Source: Sphingomonadaceae bacterium
GTDB lineage: Bacteria; Pseudomonadota; Alphaproteobacteria; Sphingomonadales; Sphingomonadaceae
NCBI GenBank assembly: GCA_009920915.1
Contig: RFZB01000001.1
Span: 2,025 to 66,024, forward strand
Length of the DNA: 64,000 nt
Direction: 5' to 3'
Under the pieces are notes generated by a model. That model saw only the letters and a program-made list of their open reading frames with translations. It did no database searches and was not told the origin of the DNA. The position numbers were made by a program, and so were the translations under genes. Below are positions 1,616 through 34,323 of the stretch, one piece after another (position 1 is the first letter of the stretch; the number at the start of each line of letters is the position of its first letter).

Positions 1616-2677
1616 TTAAGCGACTGTCCGAAAGCGAAACCCTTCAGCCGCCACGCCGGGACCAAAGGCTAGGGCAACGCCGCGGGTCACCGTCTGCTGC
1701 ATATATCGGGCAAGAACGAACATCAGCGTTGAGGACGACATATTCCCGCCTTCCCGCAAAATGCTGCGCGAGGCAGAGAGTTTGTCGGGATCAAGCCGTA
1801 AGCCATGTTCTACGGCGTCCAAAATAGACCGGCCACCGGCATGGACAGCCCACGCATCCACCGATTGTGGATCACCTCCGGCAAGATTGCGCACAAAGCC
1901 CTCGTCTTGCAGAGCGTGCGTAATCAGCGCTGGGACTTTGCCAGATAAGTGCATCACAAAGCCCGTATCCCCAATATCCCAGCGGATAAGGTCTGCCGAG
2001 TCCGGCAGGGTCGTGGCAAAGGGATCGTACAGGGCAAGGCCGGGCCCTTCGCCAGTCACCAAGGCCGCAGCGGCCCCATCGCCAAATTGCAGCATCGCCA
2101 ATAGGGATTCAATATCCTGCGTGGCATTGAGATGCAGGCATGATAGCTCCACTGTGACGACCAGCACTTTGGCCTTTGGCTGCGATCGGATAATGTGCAT
2201 GGCACTGCGCAGCGCTGATACCGCGGCGTAACAGCCCATAAATCCAACCAAGAGCCGTTCGACATCAGGCGAAAGGTTTAAATGGTGTGCCAAAATTTGG
2301 TCTACGCCGGGCGCGACAAAGCCTGTGCAGCTCGCCACAATGAAATGCGTAACATCGCGGACATCCGCCTTCAGCCCTTTTATGGCCTCCAGCGCCAGCG
2401 CTGGGGCATAATCGGCATACAGCGCCATCCGCGCAGCAGTGCCGGGGGGTGGACCATCGTAAAAGCCACCCGCAGAAACGGGAGAGCCGCCTTGGGGCGT
2501 GGGCGGCAAGACGGCATAGCGATGGTCAATTCCAGACCGGCTCGCCATGCGTCGAAATACAGCTTGTGCGCGCGGATCCGTAATTTGCGCTTCAGCCCAT
2601 CCAATGAAAGCCGCGTGAATATCGTGACTGGGGCGTGCAGTTGAAAGAGCCCGTATCCGGGGTAGGGCCGTCATCAC
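1616..2677 (-). CDS. type III polyketide synthase (chalcone/stilbene synthase family)
   Basis: Catalytic triad contexts are FMGCYAA (Cys), WAVHAGG (His) and GNMSS (Asn); also LQFGDGAAA and AFGPG. The start is probably GTG 2677 or ATG 2674 after GAGG; the ORF track starts at 2692. Confidence 0.93.
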   Translation of the reverse strand: MMTALPRIRALSTARPSHDIHAAFIGWAEAQITDPRAQAVFRRMASRSGIDHRYAVLPPTPQGGSPVSAGGFYDGPPPGTAARMALYADYAPALALEAIKGLKADVRDVTHFIVASCTGFVAPGVDQILAHHLNLSPDVERLLVGFMGCYAAVSALRSAMHIIRSQPKAKVLVVTVELSCLHLNATQDIESLLAMLQFGDGAAAALVTGEGPGLALYDPFATTLPDSADLIRWDIGDTGFVMHLSGKVPALITHALQDEGFVRNLAGGDPQSVDAWAVHAGGRSILDAVEHGLRLDPDKLSASRSILREGGNMSSSTLMFVLARYMQQTVTRGVALAFGPGVAAEGFRFRTVA

Positions 2678-2851
2678 TTGCGCCTCATCCATCCATCGCT
2701 GCGTGATGCAGCGTTAACTGCCTTTTATCAGGCTTATGTGCTTGGGTCACCTTCTCATCTCAGATGCTGGACATTGGTTTCAATATGGCTTGGGCCAGAC
2801 GACTGCGCCGGATCGCGCCAGAGGAGGGACCAGTCGCACGAATGACCTTAA

Positions 2852-4609: not shown

Positions 4610-6114
4610 TTACTGCCCTGCACTCCAGATGGTTTTCCCCTCTTTCACAGTCCGCATAATCTTGATGGAGCGAATGGCCTCGATAGGGGTCGTCAGCGGA
4701 TTTTTGTCTAAAATAACAAAGTCAGCCAGCATCCCTGGCTTGATCTGGCCTTTGCGTTTTTCTTCAAAAACCTGCCAAGCGGGGCCAGTTGTCAGCATAT
4801 GCAGCCCCTGCCACGCCGTCAGGCGTTGGTCTGGGCCATTGACAACACCCGTTTTCGATTGGCGCGCCATGCTGCTCCATAGCTGGGTCATGGGATCAAG
4901 CGGGGTGACGGGGGAGTCCGAGTGGTTGGACGGTTGGAGCCCCGCCTTTAATGCCGAGGCAAAGGGGCTGATAAAGCCCACTACATCTGCCGAAAAATTG
5001 CTGCGATGGATGTCTGCAAAATAATAAGTGTGGTTGCTGAAATAGGCTGGGCCAACGCCAATGCGCTGATACGCTTTTAGTTGGTCAGGGCGTTGAAACT
5101 GCGAATGGATAACAACGGGTCGCGCATCTGCTTTCTTCGTCAGGCCAAGCGTATCAAAGCCTTTAATGGCCATATCAATGGCTGCATCGCCATTGGCATG
5201 AACAAAAATTTGCCAGCCCCGGCTATGCGCGCGTGCCGCATCGGCATTGAACGCCTCTTGCGACATATTGGGTGTGCCATGCCATGGATGATGCCCATCT
5301 GGTGCGCCATTGGCATAGGGGCATGGGTAAAGCCATTGCTCGCATATCGGCGTTGCGCTTCGTCCAATGCAGCGCGGCGTTGCTCAGGCGAAAGCGGCGG
5401 GATTTTTAGGTAAACAGGGTAGGCAGCGTTTTCAAAAAATACGCCCGTAAGTTTGCCAGAGGCATCGCGCAACGTAATGCCGCCGGGGGGATTGGGCGTT
5501 GAGTCTGTAATGCCAGCGGCAGCCATTGCCGCGCTGTTGGTCACCAGCCCATGGCCCGTAAAGTGGATCAGTACGATTTTATGGTCGGGAAAGGCGGCAT
5601 CCAAATCTGCGCGCGTGATATGGCGTTTTTCCGCAAGCTTTGCGTCATCATATTGCCACGCAATCACCCACCCGCCCGGTGCAATTTGCCGCGCTTGAAT
5701 GCCCGTGCGCAGTGCCGCGATTAAACTGGGAATATCGTTAATGGGATGATCTGGGTCTTGCAGGTCAACGCCGCTGGCCACTTGCATCATCATGGCAAAG
5801 TGCGAATGTGCATCTACAAATCCGGGGAGCAGCGTGGCGCCGCCAAGATTTTGCTCTTTGGCCGCTGTGCCAGCAATTTTGCGGGCCTGTGCGACTTTGC
5901 CTGCATACACGATCTTGCCATCGCGTTCGACCACGGCGTCGACCATATTGGGGCGGTCCCCCGCCATCGTGAGAATGGGGCCGCCATACCAGAGGGTCGC
6001 GGGGGAAGATTCCACGGCTTGCGCCCATGCTGGCCCTGCAATGCTGAAAAGAAGCGCAAAACCAGCCTGATGTGCGGTACGCAGTCTTTTCGATTTTTCA
6101 AGCAATGTCGTCAT
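4610..6114 (-). pseudogene. amidohydrolase-3 (YtcJ-like) metal-dependent hydrolase, split by an internal deletion plus frameshift near 5312-5327
   Basis: The 5' ORF has a signal-like N-terminus and PGFVDAHSH and is family-like up to YASNGFTHA. A second frame then continues PYANGAPDG...MSQEAF...HANGDAAID...SNHSDSPVTP...GQIKPGMLADFVILD. The central K-x3-DG segment expected in this family is absent from both frames. Confidence 0.75.
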
Positions 6115-6200: not shown

Positions 6201-7175
6201 TCAACGGGCGTTGTCAAATTGCTTGATCAGCCAAGATCGGAATGCAGAAATGGCAGGGTCAGACAGATCATCAGCGTGTAGCTTTAGGAAATAGCCATAT
6301 CCGTCCTCAACAACGACATCATAGGGCATGACCAGCCGGCCTTCGGCAATTTCCTGGGCAAACATATGGACATCGCCCAAAAAGACGCCGCTTGCCGCCA
6401 TTGTGTATTGGGCAGCAGCCACGGCCGTATCAAATGCCACGCCATTGGCCGTGGGGATCGTTAGCCCTTGTTGCCGCACAAATGCTGACCATAAATAGTC
6501 ACGCGTTTGGCCCTCCAGCTTGATATGTAGCAATTCTTGGCTCGCCAGAAATTCTTCGAGTGTCTTATTGGCCCCAGCTTGGGCCGTGGCTGGCGAACAA
6601 AGTGGCGCGACCCGCACCATGCGCAGCAAATCTGTCACTTGGTCATCGACATGAGGTCGATCATAAACAATGGCCATGTCGAGCGCGCGCGCGGGCAGGC
6701 CAGTAACGTTGGAGCTTGAAATATCGACGCCAATATCGGGAAATTCGCGTCGAAAGTCCCCCAAAATGGGAAGAAACTGCTGTTGGAGAATGGAGGGGGG
6801 AACATGAATGCGCAGCATCCGATGCGCGGATTGATCATCTCGGATGGCATTCATGGCCTGCTCAATGCGATCCAAGCTCTTTGTAACAACAGGCAGCAAT
6901 TCCGCGCCAACTTCTGTCAAAGCCAGACGCGAGGCCTCTCGCTCAAACAATTGTTTGCCAAGCAGTTCTTCCAACGCGCTGACATGGCGGCTCATCGCGC
7001 TTTGCGACACAGACAATGCAGCCGCACCCGCCGTAAAGCTACGATGTTGCCCAACGGCTTCAAATGCACGCAGCGCATTTAAAGGAAGCCAGCGGCGATT
7101 GATCCTGCCCTTGGTGGAAATGGCGAAGCCTTTCGTTCGATGCTCGTTTTGTTGGTTACGCCATTGTCCCAACAT
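6201..7175 (-). CDS. LysR-family transcriptional regulator (GcvA/AmpR type)
   Basis: HTH LPLNALRAFEAVGQHRSFTAGAAALSVSQSAMSRHVSALEELLGKQLFER. It is divergent from the Rieske operon. Confidence 0.92.
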   Translation of the reverse strand: MLGQWRNQQNEHRTKGFAISTKGRINRRWLPLNALRAFEAVGQHRSFTAGAAALSVSQSAMSRHVSALEELLGKQLFEREASRLALTEVGAELLPVVTKSLDRIEQAMNAIRDDQSAHRMLRIHVPPSILQQQFLPILGDFRREFPDIGVDISSSNVTGLPARALDMAIVYDRPHVDDQVTDLLRMVRVAPLCSPATAQAGANKTLEEFLASQELLHIKLEGQTRDYLWSAFVRQQGLTIPTANGVAFDTAVAAAQYTMAASGVFLGDVHMFAQEIAEGRLVMPYDVVVEDGYGYFLKLHADDLSDPAISAFRSWLIKQFDNAR

Positions 7176-7186: not shown

Positions 7187-7217
7187 GCCATGCGAAAAAT
7201 TGATTTTATCGCATGGC
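7187..7217. promoter_or_regulatory. LysR-type operator: GCCATGCGA-N13-TCGCATGGC dyad containing a T-N11-A box
   Basis: Perfect 9-bp inverted repeat with an AT-rich spacer, lying in the 84-bp gap between the divergent lysR and Rieske genes. Confidence 0.7.
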
Positions 7218-7259: not shown

Positions 7260-8465
7260 ATGAACCTAGGGAAAATAGACGCGCTGTTTCAGGAGCGCCG
7301 TACCGGGCACACCCTTCCTCAAGCGCTGTACACCAGTCAGGATGCCTTTGAGTTCGACGTAAAGGCAATTTACGGACAGAATTGGCTGATGGCGGGCATG
7401 GAGTGTGAGCTGCCAAAATCAGGCAGTTACCTGTCCATGATGATTGGCAACTGGCCCGTCCTGATTTTGCGAGACAAGCAGGGCCACATCCGCGCCTTTC
7501 ACAATAGCTGCCGTCACCGCGGGTCGATTTTGTGTCAGCCGGGCCATGGCACGGCCCCCAAGCTGGTGTGCCCCTATCACCGCTGGACTTATGATCTGGA
7601 CGGATCCCTTTTTGCGGCAGGCCGCATGGAAGAGGATTTTGATAAATCAGCACATGGGCTGAAGCCAGTTGCCGTTGAATGTTTTGGCGGAGCGATTTTC
7701 ATCTGTCTCGCCGATAATCCGCCGCCAATTGATGAGTTTCGTGAGAAATTCTCGGCCTATGCAGCGCCCGCCAATTTTGAAAACCTGAAGCTCGCCCATG
7801 TCGACAAGCTGGTGGAATATGCCAATTGGAAGCTGGTGATGGAAAATGCGCGGGAATGTTATCACTGCGCAACGGGCCATCCGGAATTGGCGAAAACTTT
7901 CCCTGTCGGCATGTCGAAGCATTTTGACGCACATGAAGACGCGCGTGCCGAAGCCTTTGGCAAGGCGATGGACGCCAATGGCTTTCCACATGAGCCGGTT
8001 GAGGGGCATTGGTGGCAAGTCGCGCGCTTTGCGCTGAACGAAGGCTGCACCACCATGTCAGAAGATGGCAAGCCTCTGGTGAAAAAGCCTCTGTTGACGG
8101 CGAATGGCGGAAATGTGGGGTCGCTTCGCTGGGCGATTGATCCGCATTTATTTGCGCATGCCACATCTGATTATGTGTTTATGTTCAGTTGCATGCCAGT
8201 CAGCCCCACCGAAACCCATGTCTATAGCAAATGGTATGTCCACAAAGATGCCGTTGAAGGCGTGGATTATGATTTGAAAGAACTGACGGATTTGTGGCTT
8301 GTGACCAATGGTCAGGATAAAGAACTGGCCGAAAACAATCATATTGGGGTCATGAGCCCAGGCTATACGCCCGGGCCCTATTCGACCGATGCTGAAATGC
8401 TCGCCCGGCGTTTCACCGACTGGTATTGTGACACAGCCCGTGCGTATATTGATGCCCATGGCTAA
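7260..8465 (+). CDS. Rieske non-heme iron oxygenase alpha subunit #1 (GbcA/Stc2-like quaternary-amine demethylase family)
   Basis: Rieske ligands CRHRG...CPYHRW and mononuclear Fe motif ENARECYHC...HPEL. The C-terminus WYVHKDAVEGVDYD...QD is typical of betaine demethylases. Confidence 0.9.
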   Translation: MNLGKIDALFQERRTGHTLPQALYTSQDAFEFDVKAIYGQNWLMAGMECELPKSGSYLSMMIGNWPVLILRDKQGHIRAFHNSCRHRGSILCQPGHGTAPKLVCPYHRWTYDLDGSLFAAGRMEEDFDKSAHGLKPVAVECFGGAIFICLADNPPPIDEFREKFSAYAAPANFENLKLAHVDKLVEYANWKLVMENARECYHCATGHPELAKTFPVGMSKHFDAHEDARAEAFGKAMDANGFPHEPVEGHWWQVARFALNEGCTTMSEDGKPLVKKPLLTANGGNVGSLRWAIDPHLFAHATSDYVFMFSCMPVSPTETHVYSKWYVHKDAVEGVDYDLKELTDLWLVTNGQDKELAENNHIGVMSPGYTPGPYSTDAEMLARRFTDWYCDTARAYIDAHG

Positions 8466-9717
8466 GAACAAACCCAGCGACTATCGCCCTGAAACACTTG
8501 CCGTAGCCTTTGGCTATGACCCGCAGGACGGCATGGGGGCCGCTAAGCCGCCCATCTTCATGACATCCACTTTCGTCTATCCTTCGGCGCAACATGCCAA
8601 GGATGTGCATGAAGCCTATTTTGACGGCACAGGCCCCCTGGTTGGGGAAACCAACCATATTTATTCGCGCCTTGGCCATCCTGGGCTCGATTTTCTTGAA
8701 ACGCGGCTGGCGGCAATTGATGGGGCAGAGGCCGCTGTTGCCTATTGCAGTGGCATGGCCGCGCATTCCAGCATCGCGCTGTCTTATGTTCGCAGTGGCG
8801 ACAGCGTTTTGCATGGCCGGCCAATTTATGGCGGCGTTGATGTATTGTATAACACCATCATGGCGCAATTTGGCGCGCACGCCCAATCCTATCTGGATGG
8901 CACGGATGAGGCCGGTGTTCGTGCTGCTGCCCAAGCGGCAATGGCCAAAGGGCCATTAAAGCTGATTATTGCTGAAACCCCTGCCAACCCAACGGCCGCG
9001 ATTGTTGATCTCGACTTGATGGTGAGAATTGCGGACGAAGTGGGCGAAAAACAGGGGCATCGTCCGCTGGTTGTTGTAGATAACACGCTGCTTGGGCCAT
9101 TTGCGCAGCGGCCCATTGAACATGGCGTTGATCTGTGTCTGACGTCGCTGACCAAACATTGTGGCGGGCATAGTGATCTTTTGGCGGGCGGGATTTCTGG
9201 CCGAAAAGAGTTGATTGAGCCATTGCGCCTCTTGCGCACGACATGGGGCAATCATCTTGATCCCTATACGTCTTGGCTGGTGCTGCGTTCGCTGGAATCA
9301 GTGGCTGTCCGCACCGAGCGGGCGATGAGCAACGCGCGTGCTGTGGCCACCTATTTACGGGATCATCCCAAAGTTGCGGGCGTGACCTTCCTTGGCTTTC
9401 TGCCCGAAGGGTCGCGGCAGCGCGCGGTTTATGATCGGCAGTGCAAGGCCGCTGGCTCCACCTTTTCCTTCCATCTTCATGGCGGCGAGGCAGAAGCCTT
9501 TCGCATGCTAGACAAATTGCAACTGATGAAAGTTGCTGTCAGCCTTGGTGGGTCTGAAACGCTGATTTGCCATTCGGCAAGCACAACGCATTACGCCGTG
9601 CCGCGTGAGCAGCGGCTGGCAGGAGGAATTACTGATGGCACGATGCGGCTATCAGTGGGGCTGGAACATGTCGACGATCTGATCGCGGATCTCGCACAGG
9701 CATTGGAAGCGGTGTAA
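8458..9717 (+). CDS. PLP-dependent gamma-lyase (methionine gamma-lyase / cystathionine gamma-synthase family)
   Basis: Motifs KPPIFMTSTF, YSRLGHP, SGMAA, ETPANPT, VVDNT, PLP lysine SLTKHCGGHSD, AVSLGG and MRLSVGLE. The start is taken as ATG 8458, overlapping the Rieske stop. Confidence 0.9.
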   Translation: MAKNKPSDYRPETLAVAFGYDPQDGMGAAKPPIFMTSTFVYPSAQHAKDVHEAYFDGTGPLVGETNHIYSRLGHPGLDFLETRLAAIDGAEAAVAYCSGMAAHSSIALSYVRSGDSVLHGRPIYGGVDVLYNTIMAQFGAHAQSYLDGTDEAGVRAAAQAAMAKGPLKLIIAETPANPTAAIVDLDLMVRIADEVGEKQGHRPLVVVDNTLLGPFAQRPIEHGVDLCLTSLTKHCGGHSDLLAGGISGRKELIEPLRLLRTTWGNHLDPYTSWLVLRSLESVAVRTERAMSNARAVATYLRDHPKVAGVTFLGFLPEGSRQRAVYDRQCKAAGSTFSFHLHGGEAEAFRMLDKLQLMKVAVSLGGSETLICHSASTTHYAVPREQRLAGGITDGTMRLSVGLEHVDDLIADLAQALEAV

Positions 9718-11180
9718 TGGAACTGAATTTCAACGGAACCGATTTGTGCGCGGTCAACGGCACGCGCAGTGCGCCTGAGGCCCGGTATGACCTTGTTGTC
9801 GTGGGGGCAGGACCCAGCGGGATTGCGGCTGCCATTGATGGGGCTGCGGCTGGCCAATCTGTGCTGCTGGTTGATGAAAACCCAGTATCGGGCTGGTTGA
9901 TGGGCAATGATACGCCGCTCTATTTCGGCGGGCGCATGACCTCTGCAACCCAGAATAGTGACCGCATGTTGGAAGCCATTTTCATGAGCATGCCGGACCT
10001 GGAATCTGCCATGGAGGCTGGCGTTGAGCTGCTGCTCGGCACGACTGCTTGGGGCGTCTATCGCAATGGGCCGGGCGTAAACAGCCTGCCGGACCAAGTT
10101 GTTGGCTTGGCAGACCGTGATCGGTCTTGGATGGTCGGCTTTAAAAAGATTGTGATTGCAACGGGCGCGCGCGATTTAGCTATTGCGTTTCCGGGCTGGA
10201 ACCAGCCGGGTGTCATGGGCGCGGCGGCGCTGACCATGTTGTTGACGCGCTATGATGCCTTTGCTGGACGGCGCTTGCTGATTTTGGGCAGTCATGATTT
10301 GGCGCTGGAAACCGCGCTTCTCGCCTTGGACAAGGGGCTGGAAGTCGCTGGCTTGGTGGAAGTGCGCGATGCACCCCAAGGCTCTGCCGCGCTGGTTGAA
10401 AAGCTGGCAGCAGCAGGCGTTGCCATTCATTGCGGGCAGAGCATCAAGGCGACCAAAGGCGGGCTGGATGGCGTTGAAGGTGCAACGCTGACCGACGGGA
10501 CGGACTTTGTCTGCGACACGATCTGCGTTGCAATTGGCTTGGTGCCGTCAATCGAACTGGTCGATGCCATGCATGGGGCACGTACGCTTAATGCCCAGCG
10601 CGGCGGCTATATCCCTGCGGGCGAGCCGAATGTCATCACTGTGGGGGATTGCGCTGGGTTGGCGGACACGGGCTTTGACCATGTGGCCTATCGGATGGAC
10701 TGGGTGCGCGCGGCGCTGAAGACCAATGCGCCAGACACCATCATCTGCCAATGCGAAGAGGTGACGCTTGCTGATTTGATTGGCGTGCAGCCGCCGCAGT
10801 ACCTGGATCGTCCTCCAGCCATTCAGGCACGGTCGCTTGATACGTTGCTGCAGGATGGCCCGGCCAACCCGGATCAAATCAAGCGGTTGACGCGCTCTGG
10901 CATGGGGGTGTGTCAGGGTCGGCGGTGCCGCGATCAGGTGGCCATGTTGCTCGCAATCGAGTCCGACAAGCCGTTCGGCACGATCCCGCTGGCGACGCAC
11001 CGCGCGCCGGTCCGTCCGCTGCCGCTCAAAATTCTGGCGGAATGGGATGAGCCTGCCGCCATGGATGCCGCCTGGGATGTTTGGTTTGGCATTCCAACAC
11101 AATGGGTGCCCGTGGAAGATATCGGCACACCACAAGAAGATGCGCATCGCGAGATGCTCTACACGGGGATGTACAAATGA
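9717..11180 (+). CDS. FAD/NAD(P)-dependent oxidoreductase with C-terminal BFD-like [2Fe-2S] domain (HcnB / OoxA / imino-acid dehydrogenase alpha-like)
   Basis: VVGAGPSGIAA, IATGARD...FPGWNQPGVMGA, ICQCEEVT and KRLTRSGMGVCQGRRC. TAATG coupling to the upstream gene. Confidence 0.85.
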   Translation: MELNFNGTDLCAVNGTRSAPEARYDLVVVGAGPSGIAAAIDGAAAGQSVLLVDENPVSGWLMGNDTPLYFGGRMTSATQNSDRMLEAIFMSMPDLESAMEAGVELLLGTTAWGVYRNGPGVNSLPDQVVGLADRDRSWMVGFKKIVIATGARDLAIAFPGWNQPGVMGAAALTMLLTRYDAFAGRRLLILGSHDLALETALLALDKGLEVAGLVEVRDAPQGSAALVEKLAAAGVAIHCGQSIKATKGGLDGVEGATLTDGTDFVCDTICVAIGLVPSIELVDAMHGARTLNAQRGGYIPAGEPNVITVGDCAGLADTGFDHVAYRMDWVRAALKTNAPDTIICQCEEVTLADLIGVQPPQYLDRPPAIQARSLDTLLQDGPANPDQIKRLTRSGMGVCQGRRCRDQVAMLLAIESDKPFGTIPLATHRAPVRPLPLKILAEWDEPAAMDAAWDVWFGIPTQWVPVEDIGTPQEDAHREMLYTGMYK

Positions 11181-12313
11181 GCGGCTCTGAAGTCGTCATC
11201 GTTGGCGGTGGCGTTACCGGCCTGAGTGCGGGGTGGTGGCTGGCACGGTCTGGCGTCAAGGTTACCGTGCTTGATAAATTCATTGTCGGCTGGGAGGCGT
11301 CAGGCCGCAATGGCGGCGGTGCATCGCACTATTCAAGCCCCTTGTTTGATGAAGAACAGCGTATGTGGCCGCAAATGGATGAGCTGCTGGGCTATCCAAC
11401 TGAGCATCAAAAGGGCCGCATCCTGATTGCGATGACGGAGCGCCAATGGGAGCAGTATCGCTTCATTGCAGAGCGCCATACCCGGCTGAACCATCCCGTT
11501 GAGCTGCTGGATGTGAAGCAGGTGCAGGAAGCTGTGCCCTTGGCGGGCGATAACTGCTTTGGCGGTGTCCATTATAAATTTGGCGGCCATGCCAATCCGC
11601 AGCGCACCGTGCAGGCCTATGCCTGGGCGTTGCAGGATTTGGGCGGCAAGATCATTCAGCATAGCCCCGTGACAGGTTTTGAAACGGCTGGCGGGAAAGT
11701 CACTGCGGTCAAGACGGCAAATGCCACCTATGGCTGCGATGCGGTTGTTGTCGCGGCGGGCCCGCAAATTCCGCAACTTATGGCGCAATTGGGCGTGGAT
11801 GTGCCTTTGGCGGCGGCGCGCGCGGAAATGATTATTACAGAGCCTGCGCCGATGATGCCGCTGGGCGGAGTTGACGGGCATAAAATTTATGGTCGTCAAA
11901 CCTTGCGTGGCAATTTGGCCTATGGCGGCGGTCCGCATGAATGGCTTGATGTCGATGCGACTGGCCCTGCCGCGCGTCCGTCCACGCCTTTGGCACGCAA
12001 TCTGGCCAAACGTTTGGCAGAATTGCTGCCCAAGGCGGCGCATCTCAATGTGATCCGCAGCTGGGCAGGCGTCATCGAAAACTCACCCGATGGCCGCCCG
12101 ATTATTGATCGGCTGACCAGCCCGGACAATGTTGTTGTCGCATCGATGTCGAGCGTAGGCTTTGGCCTATCGCCCGCTTCGGGCCATGCAATCCGTGATT
12201 TAGTGATTGATGGCAAATGCTCCTTTGCGGACATTGATATTCTAAAGCTGTCGCGCTTTGACGGGTTGGAAAAGGATTGGCGCGAAAAGCGCGGGTGGAT
12301 GCCCATCGCATGA
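11177..12313 (+). CDS. DAO-family FAD-dependent oxidoreductase (HcnC / OoxB-like amino/imino-acid dehydrogenase subunit)
   Basis: IVGGGVTGLS, ASGRNGGG, RSWAGVIENSPDGRPII and GFGLSPASG. ATGA overlap at 11177-11180. Confidence 0.87.
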   Translation: MSGSEVVIVGGGVTGLSAGWWLARSGVKVTVLDKFIVGWEASGRNGGGASHYSSPLFDEEQRMWPQMDELLGYPTEHQKGRILIAMTERQWEQYRFIAERHTRLNHPVELLDVKQVQEAVPLAGDNCFGGVHYKFGGHANPQRTVQAYAWALQDLGGKIIQHSPVTGFETAGGKVTAVKTANATYGCDAVVVAAGPQIPQLMAQLGVDVPLAAARAEMIITEPAPMMPLGGVDGHKIYGRQTLRGNLAYGGGPHEWLDVDATGPAARPSTPLARNLAKRLAELLPKAAHLNVIRSWAGVIENSPDGRPIIDRLTSPDNVVVASMSSVGFGLSPASGHAIRDLVIDGKCSFADIDILKLSRFDGLEKDWREKRGWMPIA

Positions 12314-13566
12314 GCCGATATTCCGCGTTCAGCCTGTTGCGCGGGGCCTTTAACGGTCAATCGCACTGGAAGCCTGCCTGGCGTCATCCCGACCCCAAGC
12401 CGCATTATGACATCATCATCATCGGTGGTGGCGGGCACGGGCTGGCAACGGCCTATTATCTGGCCAAGGTGCACGGGTTGCGCAATATCGCCGTGCTTGA
12501 AAAAGGCTGGATTGGCGGCGGCAATACCGGGCGGAATACAACGATTGTGCGGTCCAATTACCGTCAGGATGCGCTGCACAACTTCTTCGAATTCGGGTTG
12601 AAGCTGTGGCACGGCCTCAGCGATGATCTGAATTACAATGTGATGTTTAGCCCGCGCGGCGCGCTGACGCTGGGCCATAGCGATGCTGATATGGTGACGC
12701 TTGCGCAGCGTGGCGATGCGATGCGCTGTGACGGAATTGATGCCGAGTTGCTGACGCGCGATCAGGTGGCAAAGCTAGAGCCTTTGCTCGATATGTCACG
12801 CACGGCCCGCTTCCCGATTGAAGGCGGATTGATCCAGCGGCGGGGTGGTTCCGCGCGGCATGATGCTGTCGCCTGGGGCTATGCGCGTGGGGCGGACAGC
12901 TTGGGCGTGGACATCATCCAAAAATGCGAAGTGACGGGCTTTGTGCGGGATGGCGATGCCATTGTTGGCGTGGAAACAACGCGCGGGCGCATTGGGGCAG
13001 GGCGCGTGGGCATTTGCGTGGCCGGGCATAGTGGCCATGTGGCCGGTTTGGCGGGACTGCGCTTGCCCATTGAATCGCAGACCTTGCAGGCCATGGTGAC
13101 GGAAGGCGTCAAGCCGATGATCAACACTGTGATCATGACGCAGGCGCTCCATTGCTATATCAGCCAATCAGATAAGGGCGGCATCGTCTTTGGTGGCGAT
13201 CCTGATAATTGGCCCAGCTACGCGCAGCGCGGCAATCCGATGATTATGGAAAATGCGGTGGCCCAAGGCTTGGCCCTTGTGCCTGCTCTGTCGCGCCTTC
13301 GTATGCTGCGCACATGGAGCGGGGTGACGGATATGAGCTTTGATGGCTCTCCCATCATTGGTGAAACGCCGCTGCCGAACCTCTATCTCAACGGCGGCTG
13401 GTGCTATGGCGGCTTTAAGGCGACGCCTGCTTCGGGCTGGACCTATGCCCACACGCTGGCGACCGGCAAGCCGCACCCGCTGAACGCGCCCTTTTCGCTC
13501 GATCGGTTTGAACGTGGGGCGACAATTGATGAAACAGGGAGCGGCCCGATGCCGAGTAGCCGCTAA
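12310..13566 (+). CDS. soxB: heterotetrameric sarcosine oxidase family beta subunit (copy 1)
   Basis: [35 protein letters not shown] (the covalent-FMN His context) and GGFKATP. ATGA start at 12310. Confidence 0.9.
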   Translation: MSRYSAFSLLRGAFNGQSHWKPAWRHPDPKPHYDIIIIGGGGHGLATAYYLAKVHGLRNIAVLEKGWIGGGNTGRNTTIVRSNYRQDALHNFFEFGLKLWHGLSDDLNYNVMFSPRGALTLGHSDADMVTLAQRGDAMRCDGIDAELLTRDQVAKLEPLLDMSRTARFPIEGGLIQRRGGSARHDAVAWGYARGADSLGVDIIQKCEVTGFVRDGDAIVGVETTRGRIGAGRVGICVAGHSGHVAGLAGLRLPIESQTLQAMVTEGVKPMINTVIMTQALHCYISQSDKGGIVFGGDPDNWPSYAQRGNPMIMENAVAQGLALVPALSRLRMLRTWSGVTDMSFDGSPIIGETPLPNLYLNGGWCYGGFKATPASGWTYAHTLATGKPHPLNAPFSLDRFERGATIDETGSGPMPSSR

Positions 13567-13829
13567 TGATGCAGATTGCTTGCCCGCATTGCGGGTCCCG
13601 CGCACAGCAAGAATTTATGTATGAACGCACGGTCGATTCCGTGGTTCCTCTTGATGCGCCAACCGATAAGGCCATGGCGGCGCTGTTCACCCGCACCAAT
13701 CCGCGCGGGCCGGACGATGAAATTTGGCGGCATACCTATGGCTGCCGGGCGTGGATGGTGGTGACTCGCCATCGCGTGACGCACGAGATTACCGCCGTTC
13801 GAGCTGTTGGGCCGGAGGTGCTGCCATGA
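13566..13829 (+). CDS. soxD: sarcosine oxidase family delta subunit (copy 1)
   Basis: Zn ligands CPHC...WRHTYGC, 87 aa, located between soxB and soxA. Confidence 0.9.
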   Translation: MMQIACPHCGSRAQQEFMYERTVDSVVPLDAPTDKAMAALFTRTNPRGPDDEIWRHTYGCRAWMVVTRHRVTHEITAVRAVGPEVLP

Positions 13830-16609
13830 CAGCCCCACGCAGAGCCGCCAAGGCAGCAACACTCAACTTCACTTTTGATGGCAAAGCCTATCGCGCTGTG
13901 CCGGGCGAGACGCTGGCTGCGGCTTTGCTCGCCAATGGCGTGAAACTGGTTGGCCGCAGTTTTAAATATCACCGCCCGCGCGGCATTATGACTGCAGGCG
14001 TGGAAGAGCCCAATGCGCTCGTCACCGTTGGGGAAGGCGGGCGGCGTGAGCCCAATACACGGGCCACGGATGTCTTTGTGTATGACGGGCTAGTCGCGCG
14101 CAGCCAGAACCGCTGGCCAAGCTTGCGCTTTGATTTTGGATCGGTCTTTGGCCTTTTCTCAAAGGCGCTGCCTGCTGGCTTTTACTATAAAACCTTTTTC
14201 GGGTCGGCCAAGCGCTGGATGATTTATGAATATTTCATTCGCAAAGCAGCTGGGCTTGGCAATGCACCGACTGAGGCTGATCCTGATCGCTTCAGCCATC
14301 GGGCGGCCTTTTGTGATGTCCTGATTGTCGGTGGCGGGCCAGCGGGCTTGCAAGCGGCTGTAGAGGAAGCAGAGGCGGGCAAGCGGGTTATTTTGGTGGA
14401 ACAGGACGCGATTTTGGGCGCCTCCCTGATCCGTGATCCGCAAACTCTTGACGCTGGCTGGGTTGAGGCGACGGCCGCCCGTATCCGCAAAGCAGGGGGG
14501 CGAATTTTAACGCGGACCTCGGCATCAGGATATTGGGAGCATGATCTTGTTACCTTAACACAGCTATGTGTTGAGCCGGGGCAGACGGCAGAAAACAGGC
14601 TTGCACAGCGGCTGTGGCGCGTGCGCGCGGGGCGTGTGATCCTCGCGACAGGCAGCATTGAGCGGCCAATTGCCTTTGCCAATAATGATCGGCCCGGCAT
14701 TATGCTGTCACAAGCTGTGCGCACTTATATTCGGCGTTTTGGGGTCGTGCCGGGGCAACGCGCGATTATCGCGACAAATAATGATGACGCCTATGACACC
14801 GCGGATGCGTTAATTGCTGCCGGGGCCAATGTTGTGGCCGTGCTGGATGCCCGCGAGACGGCCTCTGGCAGAGCGGCACATGCGCAGGCCGCCGGCATGA
14901 CTGTGCATCTTGGCGCAGTTCCAAAAGCGGCCAAGGGCGGACGTCAGGGCGTTACAGGGCTGGTGGCCAGTGTCGCGGGGGCAACGCAAAGCTGGGCTGT
15001 TGATCTTATCGCGGTGTCCGGCGGCTTCACCCCGGTTGTGCATTTGCACCAGCAAGCGGGCGGAACGCTCAACTGGGTGGAAGAGGCGCAAGCCTTTGTT
15101 CCGGGCAGCTCTCGCCAGAACGTGACAACAATTGGGGGCGCCGCCAAGCCAGAAGCAGTGGGCGTGATGCGCCCCATTTCACAGCCTAAAAAGAGCTTCA
15201 TTGATTTTCAGAATGATGTGACGCTGGCAGATGTCGATCTGGCATGGGCCGAAGGCTATCGATCCGTAGAGCATCTAAAGCGCTATACAACGCTGGGGAT
15301 GGCCACGGATCAGGGCAAGCTGGGCAATATGGCCGCGCTTGGCAGGTTGGCGGAACAACAGGGTGTTTCGATCCCCGAAGCCGGGCTGACGACCTTTCGG
15401 CCACCGTACACGCCAGTCAGCATGGGGCTCATTGCAGGGCCGGGGGCACCGCATGGCGGCGCGCATATTCGTCGATTGGCGCTCTATGATCTTCATGCGG
15501 CCAAAGCGCCCATTTGGCAGCCGCTTGGCTATTGGTTCCGCCCGCGTGCCTATCCACAGGCGGGAGAGACACTTGCCACGGCAGCACTTCGTGAGGCGCG
15601 GGCTGTGCGCACCAGCGTTGGTATGACCGATGTGTCAACGCTGGCAAAGTTCGAAATCACTGGTCCTGATGCTGCTGCTTTTCTTGAGATTATTTGTGCG
15701 ACAAGCGTTGCAAAACTCGCCATTGGGCGCGGGCGCTATACGTTTATGCTGCGAGAAGATGGGCTGGCCTTTGATGACGGCACTGTCTGGCGTTTGGACG
15801 AAAACCGCTATCTTTTAACCAGCTCAACTGGCGGCGCCGATCGGATGGCAACGCATATCTCTTATGTGCGGCAATATCTGTGCCCGCATTTGCGTGTTTC
15901 GGCTGTGAATGTGCAGGAACATTATGCCGGGATTGCAATTGCCGGGCCGCGGGCGAAACAGGTTGTCGAAGGGCTTATCGGCCAAGATGTGCCACGCCAT
16001 ATGTCGGCCATCGCAGCGTCCATCCATGGCCTGCCCGTTCACGTTCTTGCGGCAAGCTATAGCGGGGAACGTGCTTTTGAAGTCTATTGTTCGGCCAGCG
16101 AGGCGCCCTCGATTTGGGCTGCTTGCGAGGCGGCTGTTCTGGCACAGGGCGGTTGCCTTTATGGCTTGGAAGCGATGGAGTTTTTGCGGATTGAGAAAGG
16201 CCATCTTGTTGTCGGTGGCGAAATTGACGGTCGTTTATCCCCCTATGATCTGGGCCTTGAAAAGATGCTGAACAAAGCCGGCGGATTCATTGGGGCGGCA
16301 GGCCTGGGCCGTCCTGCACTGCGGGGCAAGGGACGGCGGCAGTTGGTTGGTCTGGAAGCGATTGAGGGGAACATTCCTGAAGGGGCAATGCTTTTGTCCG
16401 CGCCAAACGCCGCGCCGCAAGGCCATGTCAGTGCCGCTGCGTTTCGTGTTTTGGAGGGCGGCTCGATTGCACTGGGCCAATTGATCAATGGCTTTGATCG
16501 CCACGGGGAAGAGATGATCGCAGCATCGCCAACACGGGGGCAATCTGCCCGCGTCCGCGTAACTCATCCGCATTTCTATGATTTGGCGGGAGAGCGCTAT
16601 CGTGACTGA
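13826..16609 (+). CDS. soxA: sarcosine oxidase family alpha subunit (copy 1, intact)
   Basis: FTFDGK...GRSFKYHRPRG, GGGPAGL, DFQNDVT, EHLKRYTTLGMATDQGK, TFRPPYTP and a C-terminal GcvT/THF domain. ATGA start at 13826. Confidence 0.9.
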   Translation: MTAPRRAAKAATLNFTFDGKAYRAVPGETLAAALLANGVKLVGRSFKYHRPRGIMTAGVEEPNALVTVGEGGRREPNTRATDVFVYDGLVARSQNRWPSLRFDFGSVFGLFSKALPAGFYYKTFFGSAKRWMIYEYFIRKAAGLGNAPTEADPDRFSHRAAFCDVLIVGGGPAGLQAAVEEAEAGKRVILVEQDAILGASLIRDPQTLDAGWVEATAARIRKAGGRILTRTSASGYWEHDLVTLTQLCVEPGQTAENRLAQRLWRVRAGRVILATGSIERPIAFANNDRPGIMLSQAVRTYIRRFGVVPGQRAIIATNNDDAYDTADALIAAGANVVAVLDARETASGRAAHAQAAGMTVHLGAVPKAAKGGRQGVTGLVASVAGATQSWAVDLIAVSGGFTPVVHLHQQAGGTLNWVEEAQAFVPGSSRQNVTTIGGAAKPEAVGVMRPISQPKKSFIDFQNDVTLADVDLAWAEGYRSVEHLKRYTTLGMATDQGKLGNMAALGRLAEQQGVSIPEAGLTTFRPPYTPVSMGLIAGPGAPHGGAHIRRLALYDLHAAKAPIWQPLGYWFRPRAYPQAGETLATAALREARAVRTSVGMTDVSTLAKFEITGPDAAAFLEIICATSVAKLAIGRGRYTFMLREDGLAFDDGTVWRLDENRYLLTSSTGGADRMATHISYVRQYLCPHLRVSAVNVQEHYAGIAIAGPRAKQVVEGLIGQDVPRHMSAIAASIHGLPVHVLAASYSGERAFEVYCSASEAPSIWAACEAAVLAQGGCLYGLEAMEFLRIEKGHLVVGGEIDGRLSPYDLGLEKMLNKAGGFIGAAGLGRPALRGKGRRQLVGLEAIEGNIPEGAMLLSAPNAAPQGHVSAAAFRVLEGGSIALGQLINGFDRHGEEMIAASPTRGQSARVRVTHPHFYDLAGERYRD

Positions 16610-17093
16610 GGTTGCTATCTCGCGCCTGCCAGAGGCCCCGCTGCATGTGGTGGAAATCTGGAGCAACCCGCAGGATGTGGCACAGCGGTTTGCCGCGGCC
16701 ATGGGCTTTGCGTTGCCCGCTATGGGCCTATCAGCCAGCAATGATCGCCTGGGTCTGATGCGGTTTGAGCCAAGTGTTTGGCTGGCTGAGGGGGATGTTT
16801 CGGGCCTTGCCGACATCTTGGCTGAAAATGGGGCGCTCACCGAAATTGGCGGGGGCGTGGTGCGCATTCGCCTGTCTGGCGCTGGTTGGCGTGCGCTTCT
16901 TATGGAGGCGGGCGTCTTTGATGCAGAAGACCCCAATTTTGGGCCGGGCTGCACCGCGGCAACCCTGATTGACCACGTCAATGTGCGGTTGCATGTCGTG
17001 GCAGAGGATGTGTGCATTGCCTATGTGCCTGCCAGCTATAGCCGCGCGTTGCTCCATTTTTGGGACGAAGCTGGCAAAACGCTGACGGCCTAA
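16602..17093 (+). CDS. soxG: sarcosine oxidase family gamma subunit (copy 1, divergent)
   Basis: Position after soxA, size about 163 aa, with features such as MRFEPSVWL and FGPGCTAATLIDHVNV. GTG start at 16602 after GGGAGA. Confidence 0.75.
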   Translation: MTEVAISRLPEAPLHVVEIWSNPQDVAQRFAAAMGFALPAMGLSASNDRLGLMRFEPSVWLAEGDVSGLADILAENGALTEIGGGVVRIRLSGAGWRALLMEAGVFDAEDPNFGPGCTAATLIDHVNVRLHVVAEDVCIAYVPASYSRALLHFWDEAGKTLTA

Positions 17094-28896: not shown

Positions 28897-28897
28897 A

Positions 28898-31718: not shown

Positions 31719-31723
31719 AGGCC

Positions 31724-34231: not shown

Positions 34232-34323
34232 AACCACTGCCTAACCGATCCAAATTGCATCGTGATTGGCCCGCTATGTCAGCCGACGCTATGGTTCGAC
34301 AACTCTGGGCGCGCACCCAAGCC

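What the first reader, a model, noticed from the sequence alone, without database searches (positions are those of the whole stretch)
7260..17093. Eight-gene coupled operon placing a PLP gamma-lyase among N-demethylases
Seen: Rieske, gamma-lyase, HcnB-like, HcnC-like and soxBDAG genes, with every junction overlapping (8 nt, TAATG, ATGA, ATGA, TAATG, ATGA, 8 nt). Known: methionine gamma-lyase-family enzymes need a free primary alpha-amine for the PLP Schiff base, and they eliminate gamma-substituents of methionine or O-substituted homoserine to give 2-oxobutyrate. Inference: the substrate is a methylated C4 amino acid with a gamma-leaving group, such as N,N,N-trimethylhomoserine, its O-glyceryl ether, or S-methylmethionine, which must be demethylated first. 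This gene combination is not the known gbc, stc/hpb, cnt or mgd arrangement.
Basis: partly seen in the sequence, partly recalled or inferred. Interest (0 to 1): 0.75.

Follow-up and report, generated by a model that had tools for sequence, protein, structure and literature searches.

The report
Betaine demethylation operon with PLP lyase
Freshwater Sphingomonadales carry a conserved, transcribed eight-gene operon that joins three different N-demethylases to a PLP lyase of unknown function; it probably degrades a trimethylated amino acid other than glycine betaine, perhaps homoserine betaine from algal betaine lipids, but no substrate has been tested.

Summary
Eight same-strand genes (7260-17093) overlap at all seven junctions exactly as described. 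They encode a group V Rieske oxygenase, a Cys/Met-family PLP enzyme, a two-subunit SoxA/SoxB-like flavoprotein ("HcnB/HcnC-like") and a divergent SoxBDAG. A divergent LysR gene with a dyad operator lies upstream.

The order is not unique to this genome. It recurs in about 85 species-level Sphingomonadales genomes. River metatranscriptome contigs span four of its junctions. HcnC-like is 97-98% identical in protein at about 80% DNA identity, which indicates strong purifying selection.

The lyase lacks the methionine gamma-lyase signature residues. Its clade occurs only inside this operon.

The same window also holds a separate canonical choline/glycine-betaine route and a third "Rieske + two flavin demethylases" module. 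The operon is therefore a paralogous pathway for another substrate.

Best reading: three N-demethylations unmask an alpha-amine, and the PLP enzyme then eliminates a side-chain substituent. Homoserine betaine or the DGTS head group fits best, but this is inference only. I found no paper describing such a pathway. Verdict: a real operon, a new variant of betaine catabolism, with the substrate unproven.

The parts
6201..7175 (-). Divergently transcribed LysR-family regulator (GcvA-like)
   Evidence: Pfam HTH_1 + LysR_substrate. NCBIfam GcvA subfamily 202 bits, below the cut-off of 288. Present at the same place in 67 of the related loci.
7190..7214 (.). Interrupted dyad ATGCGA-N13-TCGCAT in the 84-nt regulator/operon intergenic region; candidate LysR operator
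   Evidence: Read directly from the sequence. Function is inferred from the usual LysR T-N11-A type sites; binding was not tested.
7260..8465 (+). Group V Rieske non-heme iron oxygenase (quaternary-ammonium N-demethylase type), alpha subunit only
   Evidence: Pfam Rieske + Ring_hydroxyl_A. NCBIfam GbcA 423 bits, below the cut-off of 670. Best PDB matches are 3n0q and Stc2 (3vca). CxH...CxxH, the His-His iron site, the Cys-X-X-Cys pair and the Trp353 equivalent are all present. There is a 3-residue deletion at Stc2 V222-G224.
8458..9717 (+). PLP-dependent Cys/Met-metabolism family enzyme (PRK07049 subfamily), putative gamma-lyase
   Evidence: PF01053 at 317 bits. NCBIfam PRK07049 508 bits against a cut-off of 504; methionine gamma-lyase TIGR01328 340 bits, below 549.7. 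Closest structures are 5ijg and 7swh, which have no assigned function. Catalytic Lys, Asp, Tyr and Arg are kept; the MGL Cys is Gly and the Lys-Asp is Thr-Thr.
9717..11180 (+). FAD/NAD(P)-binding subunit with a BFD-like [2Fe-2S] motif (SoxA N-terminal half / HcnB / OoxA type)
   Evidence: Pfam Pyr_redox_2, SO_alpha_A3, Fer2_BFD. Best PDB matches are SoxA 2gag_A and PDH1 alpha 1y56_A. Invariant C344-x-C346...C399-x4-C404 in four homologues.
11177..12313 (+). DAO-family flavoprotein subunit (SoxB / HcnC / proline dehydrogenase beta type)
   Evidence: PF01266 at 217 bits. Best PDB matches are 1y56_B and SoxB. 59-62% identical to the gene that lies two genes downstream of gbcA in Paracoccus and Ancylobacter. 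97-98% protein identity at 80-83% DNA identity across genera.
12310..13566 (+). SoxB paralogue (beta subunit of heterotetrameric sarcosine-oxidase family enzyme)
   Evidence: TIGR01373 667 bits, above the cut-off of 529. About 54% identical to Corynebacterium SoxB, with the FMN-linking His context (ARHD) kept. 52% identical to the second soxB in the window.
13566..13829 (+). SoxD paralogue (delta subunit)
   Evidence: PF04267 at 76 bits. TIGR01374 78.7 bits, below the cut-off of 116.5.
13826..16609 (+). SoxA paralogue (alpha subunit with folate-binding GcvT domain)
   Evidence: Pfam Fer2_4, SO_alpha_A3, GCV_T, GCV_T_C. TIGR01372 997 bits, below the cut-off of 1164. 44% identical to the second soxA in the window.
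16602..17093 (+). SoxG paralogue (gamma subunit), very divergent
   Evidence: TIGR01375 41.7 bits, below the cut-off of 144; no Pfam hit. Position and 8-nt overlap are conserved in relatives.
17090..18397 (-). Convergent exported alpha/beta hydrolase (cutinase/lipase-like); a possible but unproven accessory esterase
   Evidence: Weak Pfam PETase / PAF-AH hits. Weak PDB hits to cutinases and lipases. N-terminal signal-like sequence and GYSQG nucleophile elbow. Its 3' end overlaps the soxG stop by 4 nt. Found beside the operon in 40 related loci.

Best explanation
**What it is.** A LysR-controlled catabolic operon for an N-methylated, most likely N,N,N-trimethylated, alpha-amino acid that is not glycine betaine.

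**Proposed order of events**
1. The group V Rieske oxygenase removes the first methyl group from the quaternary nitrogen as formaldehyde. Its electrons would come from a reductase encoded elsewhere in the genome.
2. The two-subunit SoxA/SoxB-like flavoprotein (hcnB/hcnC-like, no folate domain) oxidises the tertiary amine to the secondary amine.
3. The divergent SoxBDAG paralogue removes the last methyl group and passes it to tetrahydrofolate.
4. With the alpha-amine now free, the PLP enzyme forms its Schiff base and eliminates a side-chain substituent, most likely at the gamma carbon. The products would be 2-oxobutyrate, ammonia and the leaving group.

**Candidate substrate.** The best-fitting candidates are homoserine betaine or glyceryl-trimethylhomoserine, the deacylated head group of the algal betaine lipid DGTS. 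For the latter the leaving group would be glycerol.

**Shown here:** gene identities, translational coupling, conservation, transcription, and paralogy with a separate glycine-betaine set.

**Inferred:** the order of the steps, the substrate, and gamma- rather than beta-elimination.

**My probabilities:** general scheme about 0.6; a homoserine-betaine-type substrate about 0.3.
For: **Enzyme count and repeated pattern.** The operon has three chemically distinct N-demethylase systems plus one PLP enzyme, all translationally coupled. The same window contains two further 'Rieske + two flavin demethylase' modules. One of them sits with BetA, a BCCT transporter and a canonical SoxBDAG, and so already covers choline and glycine betaine. 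That canonical soxA is intact in natural populations.

**Rieske.** It carries group V quaternary-ammonium features and is 352 bits to stachydrine demethylase Stc2.

**hcnB/hcnC-like pair.** Homologues lie directly downstream of the gbcA and gbcB-like genes Pden_4897/4896 in Paracoccus, and close to a Rieske plus reductase pair in Ancylobacter. This fits a role as a demethylase partner of such oxygenases.

**Lyase.** It keeps every catalytic residue but lacks the methionine gamma-lyase specificity residues. Its clade is one cluster at 50% identity among 1.8 billion representatives; the next clusters are at 46% or less. Every locus long enough to show it has this lyase inside this operon.

**Conservation.** The operon is conserved down to 72% lyase identity and 53% SoxA identity. 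hcnC-like is 97-98% identical in protein at 80-83% DNA identity.

**Transcription.** River metatranscriptome contigs cover the operon and span four junctions.

**Neighbours.** In 43 related loci the neighbours are formate dehydrogenase genes and a Zn-dependent alcohol dehydrogenase, which fits formaldehyde-releasing demethylation.

**Established knowledge.** The Cys/Met PLP family cleaves C-O bonds of O-substituted homoserines, for example canavanine gamma-lyase (PMC9533460). DGTS is a major lipid of freshwater algae.
Against: - No enzyme or growth data exist for any gene of this operon.
- No dedicated transporter, glycerol-utilisation gene or homoserine-related gene lies in the operon.
- No reductase for the Rieske protein is encoded anywhere in the 64-kb window.
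- Homoserine itself would not need a lyase, because cells can route it to threonine.
- A Novosphingobium subgroup lacks soxBDAG in the cluster, so three dedicated demethylases are not always present together. Stc2 is reported to perform two successive demethylations (PMC10952381), which may compensate.
- The exported hydrolase next door is convergent. It may be linked only by shared ancestry among close relatives.
- The PRK07049 subfamily has no characterised member, so even gamma-elimination is an assumption.
Confidence: 0.45

Rival explanations
1. The same demethylate-then-eliminate scheme applies, but to a different methylated amino acid. Examples are a sulfur-containing one (N-methylated methionine or homocysteine derivative) or a beta-substituted one (serine, cysteine or threonine betaine). 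In the beta-substituted case the PLP enzyme would act as a beta-lyase.
For: The Cys/Met PLP family includes both beta- and gamma-lyases (one search lists both among the homologues). The position matching human cystathionine gamma-lyase Glu339 is Val, as in methionine gamma-lyases, so the distal pocket is hydrophobic. A homocysteine S-methyltransferase gene lies a few kb upstream in 7 related loci.
Against: To my knowledge, N-trimethylated methionine or cysteine are not known as abundant natural products. Threonine and serine are normally degraded by other PLP fold types. There are no sulfur-handling genes in the operon.
Confidence: 0.2
2. The operon is a second glycine betaine to dimethylglycine to sarcosine to glycine pathway. 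The PLP enzyme would be an accessory enzyme, for example removing methionine or homocysteine, or serving C1/amino-acid balance. It would not be the terminal step.
For: The Rieske protein's best NCBIfam hit is GbcA. SoxB passes the family cut-off. The hcnB/hcnC-like homologues in Paracoccus lie next to genes that contribute to growth on glycine betaine. Sox operons elsewhere often carry accessory PLP enzymes such as GlyA; this last point is from my own knowledge.
Against: - The GbcA score of 423 is far below the equivalog cut-off of 670, and SoxD, SoxA and SoxG are all below their cut-offs.
- A complete canonical set (BetA, BCCT, Rieske, DAO-GcvT dehydrogenase, SoxBDAG) already exists 8-17 kb away and is intact in populations.
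- The lyase is wedged between the Rieske and hcnB genes with overlapping codons, and its clade exists only in this context.
Confidence: 0.15
3. The hcnB-like protein (FAD/NAD(P)-binding with a [2Fe-2S] motif) is the missing reductase of the Rieske oxygenase and not part of an amine dehydrogenase. The operon would then encode only two or fewer flavin demethylation steps.
For: No GbcB-type reductase is present in the window. hcnB-like has a Pyr_redox_2 fold and an invariant four-Cys BFD-like motif. Glutathione-reductase-type reductases serve other Rieske oxygenases; this is from my own knowledge.
Against: In Paracoccus and Ancylobacter the hcnB-like gene co-occurs with a dedicated GbcB-like reductase. 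The other two Rieske genes in the window also lack an adjacent reductase, which points to a shared one elsewhere. hcnB-like and hcnC-like are always adjacent, like SoxA/SoxB or PDH1 alpha/beta pairs.
Confidence: 0.1
4. The lyase acts first, on a free alpha-amino acid whose gamma-substituent is itself a methylated betaine-like group. The three demethylases then degrade the released group.
For: Gene order alone does not fix reaction order. The lyase is the second gene and lies in the more highly covered 5' part of the operon in RNA contigs.
Against: I know of no natural compound of this kind. Group V Rieske enzymes and Sox-type enzymes act on N-methylated amino acids or betaines with their own carboxylate, which would require a two-amino-acid conjugate.
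Confidence: 0.05

Closest known systems
Glycine betaine catabolism: GbcAB/BmoAB, DgcAB or DMGDH, and SoxBDAG (Pseudomonas, Chromohalobacter, Paracoccus)
   Same: A group V Rieske oxygenase is followed by flavin demethylases and a heterotetrameric SoxBDAG. The logic is three stepwise N-demethylations. A transcription factor gene lies next to the genes.
   Different: - The Rieske protein is below the GbcA equivalog threshold (423 against 670) and has no adjacent GbcB reductase.
- The middle enzyme is a SoxA/SoxB-like two-subunit protein, not DgcAB or DMGDH.
- SoxD, SoxA and SoxG are below their family thresholds.
- A PLP Cys/Met-family enzyme is inserted between the Rieske and flavoprotein genes.
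- A canonical glycine betaine set exists separately in the same window.
Stachydrine / hydroxyproline betaine catabolism: Stc2 or HpbB1C1 plus HpbA (Sinorhizobium, Paracoccus; PMC3950512)
   Same: The closest solved functional relative of the Rieske protein is Stc2 (3vca, 352 bits). A LysR regulator sits next to the Rieske gene. The pathway goes from betaine through a demethylated amino acid to a dedicated terminal enzyme (PutA in that case).
   Different: There is no HpbD epimerase, no HpbC reductase and no HpbA-type demethylase. The substrate-contacting loop around Stc2 Ala223 carries a 3-residue deletion. The terminal enzyme is a PLP lyase and not proline dehydrogenase.
Methionine gamma-lyase, cystathionine gamma-lyase and canavanine gamma-lyase (PF01053 family)
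   Same: Same fold and same catalytic residues: the PLP lysine, the Asp at the pyridine N, the stacking Tyr and the carboxylate-binding Arg. Canavanine gamma-lyase shows that this family cleaves C-O bonds of O-substituted homoserine (PMC9533460).
   Different: - It belongs to the uncharacterised PRK07049 subfamily; its nearest structures, 5ijg and 7swh, have no assigned function.
- The MGL Cys116 is Gly and the Lys240-Asp241 pair is Thr-Thr.
- It scores below all methionine gamma-lyase equivalog cut-offs.
- Canavanine gamma-lyase is reported as closest to Clostridium MGL 5DX5, which places it in a different subfamily.
HcnBC, opine oxidase OoxAB, and archaeal proline dehydrogenase PDH1 alpha/beta
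   Same: A two-subunit architecture: a Pyr_redox_2-type subunit with a small Fe-S motif plus a DAO-family catalytic subunit. These enzymes oxidise a C-N bond of an amino acid or secondary amine.
   Different: Sequence similarity is modest (about 100 bits to 1y56_B and 57 bits to SoxA). There is no HcnA-like third subunit gene. The context is betaine demethylation and not cyanogenesis or opine use.
N-methylglutamate dehydrogenase MgdABCD (methylamine utilisation)
   Same: It is a SoxBDAG homologue that demethylates an N-methyl amino acid with a real side chain, which shows the family is not restricted to sarcosine. This point is from my own knowledge.
   Different: No gmaS or mgsABC genes are nearby. 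Membership was not tested, because no model for Mgd was available in the libraries used.

Membership tests
Glycine betaine monooxygenase GbcA/BmoA (NCBIfam NF058607 equivalog) | Whole-protein score at or above the curated equivalog cut-off (670 bits) | tested here: not met
   423.5 bits. The two other Rieske genes in the window score 411 and 290 bits.
Glycine betaine monooxygenase GbcA/BmoA | Adjacent GbcB/BmoB-type flavin/[2Fe-2S] reductase gene | tested here: not met
   No reductase gene in the operon. tblastn with the Paracoccus GbcB-like protein finds nothing in the 64-kb window at E<=1e-5.
Group V Rieske oxygenases (quaternary ammonium substrates) | Rieske CxH...CxxH, a 2-His-1-carboxylate iron site, and the Cys-X-X-Cys pair beside the iron site that PMC10952381 describes in some members of the group | tested here: met
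   The alignment to Stc2 shows CRHRG...CPYH, RECYHCATGHP (Cys-X-X-Cys) and the conserved Asp region. The features are as described in PMC10952381.
Methionine gamma-lyase (TIGR01328 / NF005695) | Score above the equivalog cut-off, plus the MGL-specific Cys116 and Lys240/Asp241 (P. putida numbering; residue roles from my own knowledge) | tested here: not met
   340 bits against a cut-off of 549.7, and 311 bits against 666. The alignment to Citrobacter MGL shows Gly at the Cys position and Thr-Thr at the Lys-Asp position.
PRK07049 'cystathionine gamma-synthase family protein' (NCBIfam NF005455) | Score at or above the curated cut-off (504 bits) | tested here: met
   508.1 bits, only just above the cut-off. 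The family has no assigned reaction.
PLP fold-type I Cys/Met metabolism enzymes (PF01053) | Schiff-base Lys, Asp at the pyridine N, stacking Tyr, carboxylate-binding Arg | tested here: met
   SLTKH (Lys), VVDNT (Asp), IYGG (Tyr) and MRLSVGLE (Arg) align with the corresponding MGL residues.
Heterotetrameric sarcosine oxidase SoxBDAG | Four genes in the order B-D-A-G, with a folate-binding GcvT domain in SoxA | tested here: met
   Gene order and Pfam domains.
Heterotetrameric sarcosine oxidase SoxBDAG | All four subunits above the NCBIfam family cut-offs | tested here: not met
   SoxB 667 bits, above 529. SoxD 78.7 bits, below 116.5. SoxA 997 bits, below 1164. SoxG 41.7 bits, below 144. It is 36-52% identical to the second sox set in the window, with no detectable SoxG similarity.
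Heterotetrameric sarcosine oxidase SoxBDAG | Sarcosine as substrate | not testable with these tools
   Needs an enzyme assay.
HcnBC / opine oxidase / PDH1-type two-subunit amine dehydrogenases | Adjacent Pyr_redox_2 subunit with a Cys-rich [2Fe-2S] motif and a DAO-family subunit | tested here: met
   Pfam domains. PDB neighbours 1y56_A/B and 2gag_A/B. Invariant CxC...Cx4C.
Stachydrine demethylase Stc2 / HpbB | Substrate-contacting residues Ala223 and Trp353 (PMC10952381) and a partner reductase | tested here: inconclusive
   The Trp353 equivalent is kept. The V222-A223-G224 stretch is deleted. No reductase gene is nearby.

The most novel reading that the evidence does not exclude
The operon is the first bacterial pathway for the head group of betaine lipids (DGTS) or for free homoserine betaine.

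Under this reading, an exported esterase would free glyceryl-trimethylhomoserine. Three different demethylases would strip the quaternary nitrogen. A new PLP O-alkylhomoserine gamma-lyase would then break the ether bond, giving glycerol, 2-oxobutyrate and ammonia.

This would define the function of the uncharacterised PRK07049-type lyase clade. It would also give the SoxA/SoxB-like 'HcnBC' pair a role as a general tertiary-amine demethylase partner of group V Rieske oxygenases.
Probability: 0.25. Interest if true: 0.8.

Novelty: new variant of a known kind. Interest (0 to 1): 0.6.

Why it matters
**Ecology.** Betaine lipids and homoserine betaine are large pools of carbon and nitrogen in phosphorus-poor waters. 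I found no paper describing how bacteria degrade them. This operon is present at near identity in many lake, river and estuary metagenomes and is transcribed in rivers. It is therefore a concrete, testable candidate.

**Enzymology, whatever the substrate.**
- The operon would assign a first function to a PLP lyase subfamily that has two orphan crystal structures.
- It would do the same for a SoxA/SoxB-like flavoprotein pair that also accompanies gbcAB-like genes in Paracoccus.
- It shows how one genome keeps three parallel 'Rieske plus two flavoenzyme' demethylation modules with different terminal enzymes.

Tried and rejected
1. **Canavanine gamma-lyase as a characterised relative of the lyase.** Rejected. 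The paper reports Clostridium MGL 5DX5 as the closest structure of that enzyme. Ours is closest to 5ijg and 7swh, so they belong to different subfamilies.

2. **Looking for distant lyase relatives with the same context.**
   - The search for homologous proteins returned only proteins at 86% identity or more.
   - The representative search showed one cluster at 50% identity, then a drop to 46%.
   - A 48%-identical Rhizobium homologue that I inspected stands alone, with no demethylase genes nearby.
   - An Oligoflexales homologue at 40-43% identity has no operon genes nearby.
   - The lyase-in-operon arrangement is therefore confined to Sphingomonadales.

3. **Is the operon's Sox the only working sarcosine oxidase here?** The second soxA is frameshifted in the window. 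Rejected, because four metagenomes carry 125 extra bases at that point, so the gene is intact in populations.

4. **Is the high conservation of hcnC-like due to recent recombination?** Rejected. DNA identity is only 80-83%, so this is purifying selection.

5. **CocE/NonD hydrolases as a shared clue.** The hydrolases near the module in N. capsulatum and Ancylobacter are only 24% identical and are not orthologues.

6. **Literature searches.** Searches for homoserine betaine or DGTS catabolism, and for Rieske + gamma-lyase + sarcosine oxidase, found nothing relevant.

7. **Steps not run.** I did not run structure prediction. It would only have recovered the orphan structures 5ijg and 7swh and could not identify the substrate.

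Full report
**1. Observation**

- Rieske 7260-8465 and lyase from ATG 8458: 8-nt overlap.
- TAATG at 9717.
- ATGA at 11177-11180 and at 12310-12313.
- TAATG at 13566.
- ATGA at 13826-13829.
- soxG from GTG 16602: 8-nt overlap.

Pfam and NCBIfam confirm the gene identities.

A LysR (GcvA-like) gene is transcribed divergently at 6201-7175. The 84-nt intergenic region holds a perfect interrupted dyad, ATGCGA-N13-TCGCAT, at 7190-7214. Promoter-like and terminator-like matches inside the array are no more frequent than in shuffled sequence. The anatomy is that of a single translationally coupled operon.

**2. The operon is real, conserved and expressed**

A scan of one genome per species returned 80 loci. 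Most records are labelled Sphingomonadales (Chakrabartia, Sphingorhabdus, Novosphingobium); a few MAGs carry broader or other labels. Their lyases are 83-96% identical to ours. Every locus long enough shows LysR, then Rieske-lyase-hcnB-hcnC-soxBDAG with the same spacing.

A second scan, seeded with the 72%-identical Novosphingobium capsulatum lyase, added six more loci.
- N. aerophilum and an uncultured relative have the full eight genes. Their SoxA identity to ours is only 53-60%.
- N. capsulatum, N. rhizosphaerae and N. pokkalii carry a CocE/NonD hydrolase where soxBDAG would be.

The invariant core is therefore Rieske-lyase-hcnB-hcnC. The eight-gene form is the common and probably older state.

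Selection on the genes is strong. HcnC-like is 97-98% identical in protein at only 80-83% DNA identity.

The operon sequence occurs at near identity in many freshwater, estuary and plankton metagenomes. It is colinear with their contigs, with no indels.

Contigs from river metatranscriptomes cover the operon. They span the Rieske/lyase, lyase/hcnB, hcnB/hcnC and soxA/soxG junctions. The caveat is that such libraries can contain DNA.

**3. The proteins**

*Rieske oxygenase.* It is a group V (quaternary ammonium) enzyme.
- It has both metal sites, the Cys-X-X-Cys pair and the Trp353 equivalent of Stc2.
- Its best solved relatives are 3n0q and stachydrine demethylase Stc2.
- It scores 423 bits on the GbcA equivalog model, whose cut-off is 670.
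- It has a 3-residue deletion at the Stc2 loop that contacts the product.

*Lyase.*
- It keeps the PLP lysine, the Asp, the stacking Tyr and the carboxylate-binding Arg.
- It has Gly where methionine gamma-lyases have Cys, and Thr-Thr where they have Lys-Asp.
- It falls below every methionine gamma-lyase cut-off and just reaches the uncharacterised PRK07049 model, at 508 bits against 504.
- Its nearest structures, 5ijg and 7swh, have no assigned function.
- Among 1.8 billion representative proteins its clade is a single cluster at 50% identity. The next clusters are 46% identical or less.
- A 48%-identical Rhizobium homologue that I inspected stands alone, with no demethylase genes nearby.

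*The 'HcnB/HcnC-like' pair.*
- It is best described as a SoxA/SoxB-like or PDH1-like alpha/beta flavoprotein without a folate domain.
- It has an invariant four-cysteine motif.
- Homologues (hcnC 59-62% identical) lie beside a Rieske gene and a GbcB-like reductase gene in Paracoccus denitrificans (Pden_4897/4896) and in Ancylobacter. Betaine ABC transporter genes are nearby.
- The Paracoccus Rieske/reductase pair contributes to growth on glycine betaine. The flavoprotein pair next to it has not been studied.

*The Sox set.* It is a divergent paralogue. Only SoxB passes its family cut-off.

**4. Context that bears on the interpretation**

The window is an island of methylated-amine catabolism.
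- *A canonical choline/glycine-betaine route on the minus strand:* BetA (22144-23811), a BCCT transporter (23808-25373), a second soxBDAG (25392-30151), a second GbcA-like Rieske (30471-31718) and a DAO-GcvT dehydrogenase (31724-34237).
- *A third module:* Rieske (41298-42539) plus two DAO-GcvT enzymes (42539-47402). It lies near an omega-aminotransferase and a GABA-permease-like gene.

Three times, then, one Rieske oxygenase is teamed with two flavin demethylases. That is the number of steps needed to strip a trimethylammonium group, and each module has a different follow-up enzyme.

None of the three Rieske genes has a reductase gene in the window. A shared reductase elsewhere is therefore likely.

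The second soxA appears frameshifted in the window. Four metagenomes carry 125 extra bases at that point, so the canonical enzyme is intact in nature. This removes the idea that the operon's Sox must serve glycine betaine.

In 43 related loci the upstream neighbours are formate dehydrogenase genes, fdhD, mobA and a Zn-dependent alcohol dehydrogenase. This fits formaldehyde-releasing chemistry.

**5. Mechanism**

The most economical reading has four steps.
1. The Rieske enzyme takes the quaternary amine to a tertiary amine.
2. The SoxAB-like pair takes it to a secondary amine.
3. SoxBDAG takes it to a primary amine.
4. Only then can the PLP enzyme bind the substrate and eliminate a side-chain substituent.

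What is shown: the parts, their coupling, their conservation and their transcription. What is inferred: the order of steps, gamma- rather than beta-elimination, and the substrate.

Homoserine betaine or glyceryl-trimethylhomoserine (the DGTS head group) fits the chemistry.
- The PLP family cleaves C-O bonds of O-substituted homoserine, as canavanine gamma-lyase does (PMC9533460).
- The carriers are freshwater bacteria.
- The neighbouring exported cutinase/lipase-like hydrolase could deacylate a lipid. It is convergent and may be only a syntenic neighbour.

I put the general scheme at about 0.6 and a homoserine-betaine-type substrate at about 0.3.

The rivals I considered are:
- a different methylated amino acid;
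- a redundant glycine betaine pathway with an accessory lyase;
- hcnB-like acting as the Rieske reductase;
- the lyase acting first.

**6. Comparison with known systems and novelty**

The operon works like the gbc/dgc/sox and stc/hpb betaine pathways, but it fails the membership tests for GbcA, methionine gamma-lyase and three of the four Sox subunits. It also adds an enzyme type that none of those pathways contains. Searches of the paper library found no description of this arrangement, nor of homoserine betaine or DGTS head-group catabolism.

I rate it a new variant of a known kind. It is of good interest because it is abundant, expressed and directly testable in cultured carriers such as Chakrabartia godavariana, Sphingorhabdus species and Novosphingobium aerophilum.

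Noticed in passing
window 26372/26373 (second soxA, 25903-28627, minus strand): The second, canonical soxA is split over two reading frames in the window. Contigs from four independent metagenomes carry 125 extra bases exactly here. The window therefore has a 125-nt deletion or an assembly gap, and the gene is intact in natural populations.
   Followed up: yes
window ~5321 (Amidohydro_3 gene, ORFs 4610-5266 and 5140-6114, minus strand): The amidohydrolase gene is split into two overlapping ORFs. Metagenome contigs from three runs carry about 225 extra bases at position 5321. This is a second place where the window is shorter than the population sequence.
   Followed up: partly
window 22144-34237, minus strand: A full canonical choline/glycine-betaine route: BetA, a BCCT transporter, soxGADB, a GbcA-like Rieske and a DAO-GcvT (dimethylglycine-dehydrogenase-like) gene. 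All are on one strand, in one long same-strand run that continues down to 17090.
   Followed up: partly
window 37358-47402: A third betaine-type module: a Rieske gene (41298-42539) and two DAO-GcvT dehydrogenase genes (42539-47402), lying near an AptA-type omega-aminotransferase and a GABA-permease-like gene. This suggests catabolism of an omega-amino-acid betaine such as beta-alanine betaine or gamma-butyrobetaine.
   Followed up: no
whole window: Three group V Rieske oxygenase genes are present, but there is no GbcB/CntB-type reductase gene anywhere in the 64 kb. The electron donor must be encoded elsewhere and is probably shared.
   Followed up: partly
window 11177-12313, and L005, L013, L019, L021, L037, L050: The hcnC-like protein is 97-98% identical between genomes whose DNA is only 80-83% identical in this gene, and whose Rieske proteins are about 71% identical. 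This is unusually strong purifying selection compared with its operon neighbours.
   Followed up: yes
window 34381-36720 (minus strand); L076 13851-16301; L062 933-3305: A 779-aa transketolase/E1-like thiamine-diphosphate protein. It is only distantly like AceE. It lies at the head of the canonical betaine gene run in the window. Its 73%-identical orthologue is inserted, in opposite orientation, between hcnC and soxB in L076. A protein of the same family lies next to the LysR gene in L062 and three other loci. Its role is unknown; it could handle a 2-oxoacid or formaldehyde.
   Followed up: partly
L005 398-7764 and 42 other loci: In most Sphingorhabdus-type loci the operon's upstream neighbours are NAD-linked formate dehydrogenase genes (Nuo51-like and molybdopterin subunits), mobA, fdhD and a Zn-dependent alcohol dehydrogenase. 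In the window these are replaced by pepA, the amidohydrolase gene and other genes.
   Followed up: partly
L081 16106-18043 (Novosphingobium capsulatum plasmid) and L085-L088: In N. capsulatum, N. rhizosphaerae and N. pokkalii a CocE/NonD family hydrolase with a signal-like N-terminus follows hcnC in place of soxBDAG. In N. capsulatum strain HAMBI_0103 and in N. rhizosphaerae the cluster lies on a large plasmid.
   Followed up: partly
window 13257-13302 (soxB of the operon): Eight substitutions within 46 nt separate the window from all four metagenomes examined. Seven are at third codon positions. This looks like a short recombination tract.
   Followed up: partly
window 929-2692, minus strand: A type III polyketide synthase gene (chalcone/stilbene synthase family) followed by a SAM-dependent methyltransferase gene. 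Probably a small alkylresorcinol- or pyrone-type biosynthetic pair, unrelated to the operon.
   Followed up: no
window 57442-59466 (minus strand) and 62531-63388 (plus strand): A TPR-repeat protein fused to a sulfotransferase domain lies next to a TonB-dependent receptor gene. A Formyl_trans_N-domain (PurU-like) gene lies at the end of the window, which would fit the C1 load of the island.
   Followed up: no
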